From Mizuhopecten yessoensis (Eukaryota): 64,000 nucleotides of DNA. How positions within the stretch are numbered: the first letter of the stretch is position 1; every line of letters begins with the position of its first letter. Shown here piece after piece: positions 30,001 to 64,000 of this stretch. The position numbers were made by a program. The DNA lies in NCBI RefSeq assembly GCF_002113885.1, contig NW_018405514.1, positions 280,297 through 344,296 on the forward strand, in the 5' to 3' direction.

Positions 30001-33000
30001 ATGTGATATCTTCACTGCATACAAGAACTAAAATAATGTAGTGTTCAACAGTGATGAAATAAAGTGGACTATTTTGTTACAATACAAAAGTGATACAGTT
30101 GTGGGATCGCACAACGTTACACGATGTGCGGTGTGCGCACGATGTGTGCACGATGGGCGAACGATAAAAAGCTGGACGATCATTGCTTGCGCACATCTGT
30201 GCGCACGATGGACGGACGTTGTGCGATAACAATCGTGGTTGGTGTAAATTGAGGAATGCCTTAATAATTTATACGGTTTCGTGTTTAAACATATAAACTT
30301 GATGTTTACGTATGTTTCTATATTCTAGCAACATCTATAAACTTATCTTTCTGTCTATACATTCTTATATTTAGAAATTGTGTTTTCTGTGTTTTTAAAC
30401 AAACTTAATCGACACATGTAAAATTACAACACAATCCCGTATACAGGTAAACATAACCACTTTGTACATGTACCTGGACCGTAGTTTTCTCCCCGCCTGG
30501 GGCACTTACGTAACTCGTCGGGTAAGGCCGGGGGTGTGAAAATCCAGGTGAAGGGGAGCCATAGGCAAACGAATGCAAATAACAAATACTATTCATTACG
30601 GTCAAACGGTATCGCATATCAGCTCTGTGTGTCAGGCACTGGTCAGGTAAAACTCCGGACACTCATAAAATTGTTATTTACCTGTTCTGTTACCTTGGAG
30701 CCAAACCCATTCTTGACAGCCTAACGGTCGCTGTAATACTGTGTAACACGCATTGTGAAATTGTATAATCTTGATTATTGTGATGAGAAATTACAGATAT
30801 ATACACAGTGTACATTATCGCATACAAGCCTTCCGTATTTTTGTCATTCCGTAATTTTGATCTACAAATGATACCAAATCGCACAGTTGTGCGGAGAGAA
30901 GCGCACAACGGGGCGAACGATTGCTAAATCGCACAGTTGTGCGCACCATGTGTGGACGATGTGCGGACGGTGTGTGAACGATGTATGCACGGTGTGCGCA
31001 CGCTATTTTTGGTGCGTTGTGCGGTCCCACAACTGTATGTGATTTTGACTTGAAATTAAATGTCTCACAATGTTATTTCACACTTGTGAAAATGTCAGAA
31101 AAATCTGCCATATTCGTGAAATATGTATGATATTGATAAACAAACCATTGAAAATCCTTGGTTTATAAACTGAAAATTGTTCAAATATAATGCTTAATGT
31201 TTAAGAGTTATACACTTACCCTGAAAAGAGGATGATGAGATCAGAAGAGGTCCTCCATTTCCTTCATGAACTGGTCGTAGGCGTCGTCCTTCGTCTTGGT
31301 CTGAGCTGCTGCTGAGGCTGGAGCTGCTACAGGAGCCAGGCCTAGTAGCCGCTTCTCCTCTTCTTTGCCTCCTATCATAAAAACACAACCATCAGTATTC
31401 ATTCTCACTTTAAACATGTAGGTCAAATTATACACTCTCAAATTTGTAGGATTTTTTATATTAATTCATAGATATTTTAACTCACTGTTTTATTTATCAG
31501 TATTAGGAGGTGAAATTCCAAATTGGTCTCATAGAATACCAAATTAGTCAACCTTGGGATTGCAGGCATCAAAAGGCAATGATTCTTACAGAAGGGAGAT
31601 AATCAGCACATTTGAACAAATACCTCAATTAAAGGGAAACAACCAACTATGGATTTTTTTCATTTTTACTTTAGAGACAGCTTTAATAATACAAATGTAT
31701 GGGTGGTGGGATCAACAATATTTTACCTTCTGTTTCTGATACCATTTCTAATAATTGGTTTGAAGCAAGTCTGTGAATAACTTACCCATAGGTTTGACAC
31801 GCCCCTTGGCGTCCCGCACTTCTCGCTTGACCTTGAGAGCTGTCGGTGTGAACCTTGTAACATCCCCCATCACATTCTTGATCTGAGGTTTGGCTTCGAT
31901 TGTAGCTGCGTTTTTCTTGTCGTCGCCGCCAGCCTTCTGGGGGAGTTTCATGATACTGGGAGGGGCACTGAGCACATTGGGATTCTGAGAAGCAATACCA
32001 GGAGGAGGCAAACCAGGGGGAAGTATGTTTAATGGCCCACCTGGTGGTCTCATTAATCTGGGCGGCAGTACACCTGGAGGAGAAGGGAAAGGTTCAGTCT
32101 GATATCTACATACTATCACATGACACTCCAATTAACTAATTGACACATAAATTCTCTTTCTGATTTTTCTCTCTCAAAGTTTTGTTGTATTCACTCTTTG
32201 AAGATCTGTTTTAAAAATAACATGATCATGTCAGTAAATTCCTGATAAAAAAAGGACATAACTCACATATAGTAAAGTAATAATAACAGTCTGTCATCTA
32301 TCAAGCCATGGATCACAGTTTATAGAACTGTTAAGACATTCAAATTACAAATTAAATCTGCAATCTTGAACAAACACATAAACTTATTATTCTGTTATTT
32401 CTCTGTTGATATTTCACATTAAGTAAACATCAAAACACCAGAACTCAATAAAAGTTATCTTTAAAAATATCCCTTGTTACACATTAATTGAGCACTTTAT
32501 ATACCAGAACACATAACAGATTTTTTACACTTCATTATGTTTAGGTATTTCAGGTGATGTGACCTCTTGTTTTCTGAATACTGTATGAGCATGGTTACCT
32601 GGTGGACCGGGCGGTAATCGTGGGGGCAGCCTGATGTTGGGAGGTAACCCAGGTGGCGGTCCAGGGGGAAGACCTTGAGGTCGACCTGGAGGAGGACCAG
32701 GGGGCATCATTCTTAGGGGTGCTCCTGGAGGTCCTCCTCGTAACATTGGGGGTCTGAACATCATGGGAGGGGCTCCTGAAGGGGGGCCTGAAGGAGATAA
32801 CAAAATATCATTACACACTACATATGCCATAATATGACAACACTATAGTCATTTCTGACAATAATTTTCAGAGCGTATTTCAATGTTCTTATCACTTCTT
32901 ACAGAAACATTTCAAATGGTACACAAATATGTATGTCATATTGCTAGGATGTACATACAGAATAAACATTTTACCCTATTTGTGACAATTTCAATGATGT

Positions 33001-63000: not shown

Positions 63001-64000
63001 ATTGTTTGTAAATAGGTTATATAACAATGAGTTTTAAATTGTTTGGTATAGTTAAAACGTATTGAAATACAGTTTATTTCAGTCAATTATTTGTATAACC
63101 GTGGATATATTGATACAATGCTAGATAGATAGCTGAATGTGTTCCCCCCATGGACAATAAGCCATAGGTAAACTATCAAGACATTTTACCACAAAACTGC
63201 ATTTCTAAAGTACCATTCTGACAGAATTTACGACTTTTTGACAACAAAAGTAACTAGTATTGACTATAAATTTGTGATTTTGTAAGATATTCTTTACATT
63301 TGAATGTTAAATGTGACAAATTTAAGAACAATTATGAATAGCATTAGAGAAAGATGGTCCACTCACCCTTGAAAAGAAAGACTGAGTACTCTCTAAAAGC
63401 TTTGTACGATGCCACCATACTCTGGAAGTTAGAATGAGCTAGATTTCCTGTATCCTCATCATATTGCCATTCTGCATTAACCAGTTGTAATCGGAATTTC
63501 AGGATAAGAGAAAAGATGTCCTGTATGATTTTCATCACTGCCCCAGCTTTCTTGTTCAGTAAGCATCTGCCATAAAATATATAAAAATATATCAATGCCA
63601 TATCAATCACCACAAACTAGATTCTGACTAATACACTTCAATATCTTGAATATGAATGTTAAAATTTGAATCCCTAACTACAAGCTTTTAAATTAAACGA
63701 ATCAAAATATCTTCATTCTTTGAGAATTTTAAAAATTTTGTACATAATCTTCAAAACAAGTAAATCTAAAACCTGGTTACAGCACTACAAAATGTTTACA
63801 AAAAGACATTCTCTTAAAAAGACCATGCACCAGCTAACAGTATCAACAGATAAGAATTTTGTGCATTTGAGAGCATGGTCTCAAAACCAAGTTGTGTGGT
63901 TGTACTGAGAGGCAGAGGGATTGGTATTCCTACCTGAATATGGCTTTATCTAGGTAGTTGGAGTGGACCTTATGTAGGTCATCAAGGTTGTGGACATCGC

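What the first reader, a model, noticed from the sequence alone, without database searches (positions are those of the whole stretch)
31241..64000. Splicing factor WBP11 sits next to its known target TUBGCP6, with EXOC7 between them
Seen: gene order WBP11(-), EXOC7(+), TUBGCP6(-), with ~17 kb between the putative WBP11 promoter and the TUBGCP6 stop. Established knowledge, from memory: in human cells WBP11 is required for splicing TUBGCP6 pre-mRNA and so for centriole duplication; Exo70 has been reported to bind PRP19 and influence splicing; the human genes lie on different chromosomes (12, 17, 22). Inference: this may be an ancestral or selected regulator-target micro-cluster. It could equally be chance within an ancestral linkage group.
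[Added by the scan's program, not by the reader: the finding's places include an assembly gap (unread letters, written N; its length is only estimated) at 40213 to 40625, 60638 to 61411. Whether the letters on both sides are continuous or in frame is not known: test that first.]
Basis: partly seen in the sequence, partly recalled or inferred. Interest (0 to 1): 0.7.

Follow-up and report, generated by a model that had tools for sequence, protein, structure and literature searches.

The report
Scallop WBP11, EXOC7, TUBGCP6 gene neighbours
Three ordinary housekeeping genes do lie side by side in this scallop sequence, but the splicing factor and its supposed target are neighbours only in scallops, so the closeness looks like coincidence and not a regulatory cluster.

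Summary
The window is Yesso scallop (Mizuhopecten yessoensis) DNA. The gene order WBP11(-), EXOC7(+), TUBGCP6(-) is real. Each identity was confirmed exon by exon.

Caveats:
- Only the last three TUBGCP6 exons (about 120 residues) are in the window.
- The first coding exons of both WBP11 and EXOC7 are missing from the assembly.
- The first gap lies inside a WBP11 intron, and the reading frame is kept across it.
- The second gap lies between the 3' ends of EXOC7 and TUBGCP6, so no gene spans that join.

Record-based proxies (exact contig lengths and accession numbers) split the trio in two.
- WBP11-EXOC7: same contig in 4 of 4 other molluscs, with consecutive accessions in an oyster and a periwinkle. 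Both genes are named in the legend of a 2013 Nature figure of conserved gene clusters.
- EXOC7-TUBGCP6: together in 4 of 4 scallops only.
- WBP11-TUBGCP6: different contigs in 11 of 11 non-scallop molluscs.

In human cells TUBGCP6 is one of about 122 WBP11-sensitive genes, and other splicing factors affect it too.

Verdict: a regulator-target micro-cluster is not supported. The old part is an already published linkage. Low interest.

The parts
31241..43044 (-). WBP11 gene, coding exons as detected: 31241-31366 (with stop), 31793-32086, 32597-32794, 33045-33227, 33670-33933 (RD-repeat stretch), 34693-34773, 35328-35450, 36007-36099, 37077-37151, 37409-37495, 41807-41905, 42281-42373, and about 43011-43044 (the matched part is 43012-43041). 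The exon for about residues 2-22 is not in the window.
   Evidence: tblastn of three named mollusc WBP11 proteins covers their residues 33-569, 33-595 and 33-620. The small exon KEARKKELKK matches 100%. Solved-structure hits to human WBP11 at E 1e-10 and 2.2e-12. Pfam Wbp11 scores 23.0 bits against a cut-off of 24.3 on the single exon 42281-42373.
40213..40625 (.). Assembly gap 1, inside the WBP11 intron between exons 41807-41905 and 37409-37495.
   Evidence: N run. Both flanking exons are phase 0, and homologue residues 96|97 are contiguous. A 156-bp tandem repeat at 39778-40212 runs into the gap.
45400..46130 (.). Putative shared (bidirectional) promoter region between WBP11 and EXOC7. It is CpG-rich and holds a divergent pair of exact CATGGCGGTC motifs at 45882-45891 (-) and 46058-46067 (+).
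   Evidence: CpG observed/expected is 1.1-1.6 here, against a window median of 0.28 and a 95th percentile of 1.04. The motif has 5 matches at <=1 mismatch against 0.73 expected, and the only 2 exact matches are this pair. Promoter function is inferred. No transcript data were available.
44693..44693 (.). Single N in the interval where the missing WBP11 5' coding exon should lie.
   Evidence: That sequence was lost at this point is inference only.
46828..46828 (.). Single N, followed by a C/A homopolymer, in the interval where the missing EXOC7 exon(s) for residues 1-71 should lie.
   Evidence: The RefSeq model of this species (643 aa against 698 aa in three other scallops) starts instead at 46934-47005.
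47222..59338 (+). EXOC7 (Exo70) gene. 20 exon matches cover residues 72-698 of the Ylistrum balloti orthologue. Stop TAG at 59336-59338.
   Evidence: tblastn. Pfam Exo70_C at E 3.4e-23 (59072-59335) and 1e-09 (56018-56182). 67 homologues were found, and every source name shown that identifies the protein is exocyst complex component 7.
60638..61411 (.). Assembly gap 2, in the intergenic or 3'-UTR space between the convergent EXOC7 and TUBGCP6 genes.
   Evidence: N run. A 30/88-bp tandem repeat at 61412-61724 abuts it. No gene spans it.
62887..64000 (-). 3' end of TUBGCP6 (GCP6). Last three coding exons: 64000-63934, 63566-63367 and 62978-62887 (stop TAA at 62889-62887). That is about 120 of 1547 or 1638 residues. 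The rest lies beyond the window.
   Evidence: Sequence reading. 100% identity to XP_021351064.1. Solved-structure hits are GCP6 only. Pfam GCP_C_terminal scores 22.5-23.6 and 17.1-17.7 bits on the single exons, below the 25.8 cut-off.
62636..62940 (.). 61-bp tandem repeat, 5 copies, 96% matches. It repeats the last 17 codons plus the stop of TUBGCP6 into its 3' UTR.
   Evidence: tblastn shows four extra copies of residues 1531-1547 at 62646-62879.

Best explanation
This is a stretch of the Yesso scallop genome carrying three ordinary, broadly required genes.

WBP11 and EXOC7 lie head to head. They most likely share a CpG-rich bidirectional promoter at about 45.4-46.1 kb. This pairing is an old, conserved microsyntenic linkage in molluscs and has apparently been published as such.

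TUBGCP6 lies tail to tail with EXOC7. This placement came from a rearrangement in the scallop lineage, and convergent 3' ends share no promoter.

That WBP11 ends up about 17 kb from a gene whose human orthologue needs WBP11 for splicing is a coincidence. WBP11 acts in trans on many transcripts, so genomic proximity gives it no mechanistic advantage.

Shown here: gene identities, order, strands, the intronic position of gap 1, and the lineage pattern of co-location by proxy.

Inferred: the shared promoter, the loss of 5' exons at the single-N joins, and the direction of the scallop rearrangement.
For: Identities.

Organism: exon 63368-63565 is 100% identical to an M. yessoensis GCP6-like protein on a 1,265,171-base contig.

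- Littorina saxatilis: 104,294,781 bases; accessions KAK7112145/6 and XP_070186284/5, consecutive in two annotations.
- Crassostrea virginica: XP_022317567-68 and XP_022317569-70, consecutive; both on 48,412,105 bases.
- Gigantopelta aegis: 81,591,406 bases.
- Ostrea edulis: 94,441,566 bases.

Published linkage: the legend of Fig. 5 of PMC4085046, 'conserved orthologous gene clusters', names Exoc7, WBP11, FoxJ, MGRN and FAM100.

EXOC7 and GCP6, same contig in 4 of 4 scallops:
- M. yessoensis: 1,265,171 bases.
- Ylistrum balloti: 2,363,085 bases.
- Pecten maximus: 60,076,705 bases.
- Argopecten irradians: 51,162,219 bases; XP_069123682/3, consecutive.
They are on different contigs in Sinanodonta woodiana (164,761,221 against 120,459,701 bases).

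WBP11 and GCP6, different contigs in 11 of 11 non-scallop molluscs: Mytilus edulis, M. galloprovincialis, M. trossulus, Patella vulgata, P. caerulea, Lottia gigantea, Bradybaena similaris, Dreissena polymorpha, Potamilus streckersoni, Elysia chlorotica and Physella acuta.

[quoted passage not shown] TUBGCP6 protein also falls after SNW1, SLU7 or PRPF8 depletion. An intronless TUBGCP6 rescues only partly (PMC7039186, passages).

Promoter region.
Against: The synteny evidence is indirect.

Accession numbers are not strictly positional. The adjacent M. yessoensis GCP6 and EXOC7 genes differ by 34-36, and P. maximus GCP6 and EXOC7 differ by about 27,000 on the same chromosome-sized contig.

No scallop WBP11 protein was retrieved (0 scallops among the 61 hits). 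The full trio is therefore seen only in this window.

I could not see Fig. 5 of PMC4085046 or its Supplementary Note 7.2. That WBP11 and Exoc7 share a panel is my inference.

The first coding exons of both WBP11 and EXOC7 are missing, so the promoter assignment rests on CpG content and one motif pair.

Conservation of the EXOC7-GCP6 adjacency across four scallop genera could reflect constraint and not only slow rearrangement.

No expression or splicing data were available.
Confidence: 0.8

Rival explanations
1. A selected regulator-target micro-cluster. WBP11 and its splicing substrate TUBGCP6, with EXOC7 as a second splicing-linked gene, are kept together so that they are co-regulated in one chromatin domain.
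For: The functional links are real in human cells (PMC7039186; Exoc7-Prpf19 binding and interference with splicing, as reported in PMC7862454 citing Dellago 2011). The EXOC7-GCP6 adjacency is shared by 4 of 4 scallop genera.
Against: WBP11 and GCP6 are on different contigs in 11 of 11 non-scallop molluscs. A spliceosome protein acts in trans, so proximity is not needed. TUBGCP6 is one of about 122 sensitive genes and also responds to other splicing factors. EXOC7 and GCP6 are convergent, so they share no promoter. The two scallop GCP6 introns visible are 367 and 388 nt, ordinary next to the roughly 230-1284-nt introns of the neighbours. Their 5' splice sites are CAG|GTAGGA and AGG|GTGAGT. This is not the short-and-weak class described in human.
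Confidence: 0.03
2. Scaffolding artefact. EXOC7 and TUBGCP6 are joined only by the 774-N gap, so the adjacency could be a mis-join.
For: No gene spans gap 2. Tandem repeats abut it. The assembly is imperfect nearby, with the 5' exons of two genes missing.
Against: Both genes sit on contigs of identical length in three other scallop assemblies, with consecutive accessions in Argopecten irradians.
Confidence: 0.04
3. The conserved WBP11-EXOC7 pair is held together for a functional reason of its own. Either co-dosage of a spliceosome factor and the PRP19-binding exocyst subunit through one bidirectional promoter, or both genes are bystanders carrying enhancers of a nearby developmental gene such as FoxJ. 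TUBGCP6 remains incidental.
For: Head-to-head orientation with a CpG-rich interval and a divergent motif pair. Linkage in bivalves and gastropods. The PMC4085046 legend lists FoxJ together with Exoc7 and WBP11, and its text speculates that cis-regulatory landscapes preserve such blocks.
Against: No transcript, enhancer or expression data. No forkhead domain was found among the window ORFs scanned with Pfam. That scan covered all 269 ORFs of at least 45 aa listed from 26.4 to 64 kb and 84 of the 150 listed from 1 to 26.5 kb. Slow rearrangement alone can preserve pairs: the paper expects 157 of its 469 blocks by chance.
Confidence: 0.13

Closest known systems
Conserved metazoan microsyntenic blocks (Simakov et al. 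2013, Nature, PMC4085046, Fig. 5 examples naming Exoc7, WBP11, FoxJ, MGRN, FAM100)
   Same: WBP11 and EXOC7 are direct neighbours here. By accession and contig proxies they are also linked in an oyster and a periwinkle, and on the same contig in two further molluscs.
   Different: I read only the legend and passages. The figure and Supplementary Note 7.2 were not available, so panel membership is inferred. The other named genes of that figure were not found in this window. TUBGCP6 is not among the genes named in that legend.
Head-to-head gene pairs with bidirectional CpG-rich promoters (general class; recalled knowledge)
   Same: Divergent orientation. The CpG observed/expected peak lies between the genes. 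A divergent pair of identical 10-mers lies 176 bases apart, start to start.
   Different: Transcription start sites are unknown. The first coding exons of both genes are missing from the assembly, so the true spacing cannot be measured.
Human WBP11-dependent splicing of TUBGCP6 (Park et al. 2019, PMC7039186)
   Same: The orthologues of both genes are present. The scallop exons hit human WBP11 and vertebrate GCP6 chains among solved structures.
   Different: [quoted passage not shown] The two homologous-end scallop introns visible are not of that kind. The human genes are recalled to lie on chromosomes 12, 17 and 22.

Membership tests
WBP11 (WW domain-binding protein 11) | N-terminal Wbp11 domain (Pfam PF09429) | tested here: inconclusive
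   The single exon 42281-42373 scores 23.0 bits against a cut-off of 24.3 (E 1.1e-4, profile positions 22-51 of 78). The exon for the first about 22 residues is missing. The adjacent exon hits human WBP11 residues 64-99 at E 1e-10.
WBP11 (WW domain-binding protein 11) | Full-length collinearity with named WBP11 orthologues, including proline-rich PPGPPP tracts and the conserved C-terminus | tested here: met
   13 exons cover residues 23-569 of the Saccostrea protein in order. The C-terminal exon hits human WBP11 residues 492-593 at E 2.2e-12. Of the 61 homologues, every source name shown that identifies the protein is WBP11; the others are unnamed, hypothetical or uncharacterised.
EXOC7 / Exo70 | Exo70 C-terminal domain (Pfam PF03081) above the curated cut-off | tested here: met
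   82.7 bits and 38.4 bits on two separate exons against a cut-off of 24.1.
EXOC7 / Exo70 | N-terminal coiled-coil region (the part reported to bind PRP19) | tested here: not met
   Residues 1-71 of the scallop orthologues have no match anywhere in the window (best tblastn E 0.13, spurious; motif search empty). This is an assembly defect and not gene loss: three other scallops have 698-aa proteins.
TUBGCP6 / GCP6 | GCP C-terminal (GRIP2) domain | tested here: inconclusive
   Single exons score 22.5-23.6 and 17.1-17.7 bits against a cut-off of 25.8. The full-length RefSeq protein that matches at 100% carries PF19340, PF17681 and PF04130.
TUBGCP6 / GCP6 | Closer to GCP6 than to GCP2-5 | tested here: met
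   All 5 of 5 solved-structure matches at E<=10 are GCP6 chains (E 4e-12 to 3e-11), with no GCP2-5 chain listed. Of the 11 of 17 homologues that carry a source name, the names shown are GCP6 or gamma-tubulin complex component, or 'hypothetical protein'.
Regulator-target gene cluster | Linkage of regulator and target conserved beyond one lineage | tested here: not met
   WBP11 and GCP6 are on contigs of different length in 11 of 11 non-scallop molluscs. This is a proxy and not a direct gene-order comparison.
Regulator-target gene cluster | Co-expression, and dependence of the target on the neighbour | not testable with these tools
[quoted passage not shown] | At least three linked orthologues in at least two genomes | tested here: inconclusive
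   Only the pair WBP11-EXOC7 could be followed, in 4 of 4 other molluscs by proxy. The third members named in the legend (FoxJ, MGRN, FAM100) were not found in the window.

The most novel reading that the evidence does not exclude
The head-to-head WBP11-EXOC7 pair, conserved across bivalves and gastropods and perhaps far wider, is kept because one bidirectional promoter sets the joint dose of a spliceosome factor and the exocyst subunit that binds PRP19 and modulates splicing. In scallops, TUBGCP6 has joined this domain and been retained there across four genera, giving a lineage-specific co-regulated module linking splicing and centriole assembly.
Probability: 0.05. Interest if true: 0.5.

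Novelty: already known. Interest (0 to 1): 0.15.

Why it matters
It matters little as it stands. EXOC7 and TUBGCP6 are already annotated in this species. The old WBP11-EXOC7 linkage is named in the legend of a 2013 figure of conserved gene clusters. The eye-catching regulator-target proximity appears confined to scallops.

The case is useful as a caution. A splicing factor that touches more than a hundred genes will, somewhere in some genome, lie beside one of them.

A practical by-product: this assembly lacks the first coding exons of both WBP11 and EXOC7. The RefSeq EXOC7 model for this species (643 aa) therefore has a wrong start.

Tried and rejected
- Pfam scan of stop-to-stop ORFs. It covered all 269 ORFs of at least 45 aa listed from 26.4 to 64 kb and 84 of the 150 listed from 1 to 26.5 kb (ORF list; scans). 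Beyond the three genes it gave only a zf-BED remnant. The hits at 430-1074 and 6.1-8.5 kb are low-complexity artefacts on tandem repeats, with 0 stretches passing on their own.
- tRNA and Rfam scans of the whole window: 0 genes and 0 families.
- Search for the missing 5' exons. A sensitive tblastn and a six-frame motif search over the whole window found nothing except the 10-residue WBP11 exon at 43012-43041. I did not try to recover the missing parts from other assemblies.
- Direct microsynteny could not be done. The only open genome collection holds bacteria and archaea, so it was not used. Contig lengths and accession numbers served as proxies instead.
- Amphioxus. EXOC7 (23,080,657 bases) and GCP6 (27,505,181 bases) are on different contigs of a hybrid assembly. 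I set this aside as ambiguous, because two parental haplotypes are present.
- I rejected using gaps between accession numbers as a measure of distance. Adjacent M. yessoensis genes differ by 34-36.
- Literature searches 'Exoc7 + FoxJ1 + synteny' (0 papers), 'WBP11 + microsynteny' (2 papers) and 'Exoc7 + microsynteny' (1 paper) added only PMC4085046 and PMC5722932.
- Structure prediction, complex prediction and the protein atlas were not used. The families are well known and no binding claim is made.
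Full report
**Source and method**

The window is eukaryotic, AT-rich DNA with four N runs: 40213-40625, 44693, 46828 and 60638-61411. One exon (63368-63565, minus strand) is 100% identical to 'gamma-tubulin complex component 6-like' of Mizuhopecten yessoensis, encoded on a 1,265,171-base contig. 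The window is therefore Yesso scallop and not human. All protein searches with window sequence were done exon by exon.

**WBP11**

- Three named mollusc WBP11 proteins map by tblastn to 12 minus-strand exons between 31247 and 42373, in order.
- A small further exon (KEARKKELKK, matched at 43012-43041) was found at 100% identity and confirmed by reading its splice sites.
- The stop codon TGA is at 31243-31241.
- Among solved structures, the exon at 41741-41920 hits only human WBP11 significantly (E 1e-10; the next of 11 listed is 0.53). The exon at 31751-32131 likewise (E 2.2e-12; the other of 2 listed is 0.9).
- Pfam's Wbp11 domain reaches 23.0 bits on one 31-residue exon, just under the 24.3 cut-off. 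That is expected for 30 of 78 profile positions.
- The exon for about residues 2-22 (the MGRRS... start) is not in the window.

**EXOC7**

- Twenty plus-strand exon matches from 47222 to 59335 cover residues 72-698 of the Ylistrum balloti orthologue. The stop TAG is at 59336-59338.
- Two exons pass the Exo70_C cut-off on their own.
- Residues 1-71 have no match in the window.
- This species' RefSeq model is 643 aa, against 698 aa in three other scallops. It starts with an unrelated stretch at 46934-47005.
- The missing part includes the N-terminal coiled coil, which Dellago et al. 2011 (as cited in PMC7862454, passages read) reported to bind PRP19.

**TUBGCP6**

- Only three terminal exons are present: 64000-63934, 63566-63367 and 62978-62887. 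That is about 120 of 1547 or 1638 residues.
- All 5 of 5 solved-structure matches at E<=10 are GCP6 chains, and no GCP2-5 chain is listed.

**The gaps**

Gap 1 lies in a WBP11 intron.
- The upstream exon ends '...MKLY' followed by gtaagt, in phase 0.
- The downstream exon begins after 'cacag' with 'EKENP', in phase 0.
- Homologue residues 96 and 97 are contiguous.
- So the two sides belong to one gene, in order and in frame, and no coding exon is lost.
- A 156-bp tandem repeat runs into the gap.

Gap 2 lies between the convergent stop codons of EXOC7 and TUBGCP6, 3548 bases apart counting the 774 Ns.
- No gene crosses it, so continuity cannot be tested within the window.
- The only support for this join is that other scallop assemblies also put the two genes on one contig (see below).

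**The interval between WBP11 and EXOC7**

- CpG observed/expected rises to 1.1-1.6 at about 45.2-46.1 kb. The window median is 0.28 and the 95th percentile is 1.04.
- The only two exact copies of CATGGCGGTC in the window lie here, 176 bases apart start to start, in divergent orientation. There are 5 matches at <=1 mismatch against 0.73 expected, and 0 of 100 shuffles reach 5.
- I read this as a likely bidirectional promoter. That is inference, and the resemblance of the motif to YY1-type sites is recalled and not tested.
- Each of the two single Ns sits in the interval where a missing 5' exon should be. That sequence was lost at these joins is a guess, and I did not pursue it.

**Is the neighbourhood conserved?**

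No eukaryotic genome collection was available. I used two proxies from the protein records:
- the exact length of the contig that encodes each protein;
- accession numbers.

Equal lengths to the base are taken as the same contig. This is indirect.

WBP11 and EXOC7: same contig in 4 of 4 other molluscs for which both were retrieved.

| Species | Contig (bases) | Accessions |
|---|---|---|
| Littorina saxatilis | 104,294,781 | KAK7112145/6 and XP_070186284/5, consecutive in two annotations |
| Crassostrea virginica | 48,412,105 | XP_022317567-68 and XP_022317569-70, consecutive |
| Gigantopelta aegis | 81,591,406 | about 100 apart |
| Ostrea edulis | 94,441,566 | about 1,440 apart |

EXOC7 and GCP6:
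- Same contig in 4 of 4 scallops: M. yessoensis, Ylistrum balloti (2,363,085 bases), Pecten maximus (60,076,705 bases) and Argopecten irradians (51,162,219 bases; XP_069123682/3, consecutive).
- Different contigs in the unionid Sinanodonta woodiana.
- Also different in an amphioxus hybrid assembly. I treat that case as ambiguous.

WBP11 and GCP6: different contigs in 11 of 11 non-scallop molluscs.
- Chromosome-scale: Mytilus edulis, M. galloprovincialis, M. trossulus, Patella vulgata, P. caerulea, Bradybaena similaris and Dreissena polymorpha.
- Scaffold-level: Lottia gigantea, Potamilus streckersoni, Elysia chlorotica and Physella acuta.

Weak points:
- Accession gaps are not distances. The adjacent M. 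yessoensis genes differ by 34-36.
- No scallop WBP11 protein was retrieved, so the full trio is documented only in this window.

**Literature**

  - 145 introns in 122 genes are retained in all three depletion conditions.
  - TUBGCP6 protein also falls after SNW1, SLU7 or PRPF8 depletion.
  - Intronless TUBGCP6 rescues only partly.
- The Exo70-PRP19 link is reported in PMC7862454, citing Dellago 2011 (passages).
- Simakov et al. 2013 (PMC4085046; passages and the legend of Fig. 5) list Exoc7 and WBP11, with FoxJ, MGRN and FAM100, among 'conserved orthologous gene clusters'.
  - The figure and Supplementary Note 7.2 were not visible, so that the two share a panel is my inference.
  - It fits the human neighbourhood EXOC7-FOXJ1-RNF157 that I recall.
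- PMC5722932 (one passage) places human WBP11 beside PDIA8/RhoGDI-beta. [quoted passage not shown] By recollection those pairs lie at 12p12, 17q25 and 16p13. This would make the human WBP11 and EXOC7 loci paralogous regions, consistent with an old linkage split by genome duplication and gene loss.
- Searches for further print on this linkage found nothing more.

**Chance**

This estimate rests on my own assumption of about 20,000 genes. With about 122 high-confidence WBP11-dependent genes, the chance that one of the four genes within two positions of WBP11 is such a gene is roughly 2-3%. A reader scanning a whole genome, free to recall any functional link between any neighbours, should meet many such coincidences. 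The lineage pattern above is the stronger argument.

**The scallop introns**

The two TUBGCP6 introns visible are 367 and 388 nt long, with about 30% G+C. Their 5' splice sites are CAG|GTAGGA and AGG|GTGAGT. They are ordinary beside the roughly 230-1284-nt introns of EXOC7 and the 250-977-nt introns of WBP11. The second splice site is close to consensus. Only 2 of the gene's introns can be judged here.

**Verdict**

The regulator-target cluster reading is not supported. The WBP11-EXOC7 half is an old linkage already in print. The TUBGCP6 adjacency is, as far as these proxies show, confined to scallops.

Noticed in passing
window 62636-62940: A 61-bp unit repeated 5 times (96% matches). It copies the last 17 codons and the stop codon of TUBGCP6 into its 3' UTR. 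Each unit also carries a 'ttacag' acceptor-like site. tblastn finds four extra copies of residues 1531-1547.
   Followed up: partly
window 43044-47222, with single Ns at 44693 and 46828: The first coding exons of both WBP11 (about residues 2-22) and EXOC7 (residues 1-71) are absent from the whole window. The RefSeq EXOC7 model of this species is 55 residues shorter than in three other scallops and has an unrelated start.
   Followed up: partly
window 45882-45891 (-) and 46058-46067 (+): A divergent pair of exact CATGGCGGTC motifs inside the CpG-richest part of the finding's region (29.9-31 kb scores as high). These are the only exact copies in 64 kb. It may mark a bidirectional promoter.
   Followed up: partly
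window 33548-33724, within exon 33670-33933 (-): The scallop WBP11 carries a long Arg-Asp/Glu dipeptide run (RDRDRDRE...), encoded by a 12/18-bp tandem repeat. It is longer than the corresponding acidic or basic stretch in the oyster and mussel proteins.
   Followed up: no
window 38741-38923 (+): An ORF with a BED zinc-finger match (21.1 bits against a cut-off of 20.6) inside the large WBP11 intron. It is probably a transposon remnant.
   Followed up: no
window 36244-37109 and 56220-56984: Two large intronic minisatellites. One has a 40-bp unit x 21.6 copies in WBP11. The other has a 43-bp unit x 18.2 copies in EXOC7, starting just after the exon at 56063-56182.
   Followed up: no
window 6129-9471 (-) and 430-1074: Tandem arrays that stay open in several reading frames. 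One shows a roughly 15-residue peptide period (TLLSQTVGPDQACID...) at 47% G+C. The other shows an 11-residue period (CCFHHMESSLV). They give spurious low-complexity Pfam hits and look like satellites, not genes.
   Followed up: partly
window 29900-31100: A second CpG-rich patch (observed/expected up to 1.76) just past the 3' end of WBP11. It is made of degenerate GTGCGCACGATG-like short repeats, and its nature is unknown.
   Followed up: partly
Crassostrea virginica protein records: Two sets of EXOC7 and WBP11 accessions exist: XP_022317567-70 and XP_022312993/4 with XP_022313089/90. This suggests a duplicated or haplotig copy of the pair in the older oyster annotation.
   Followed up: no
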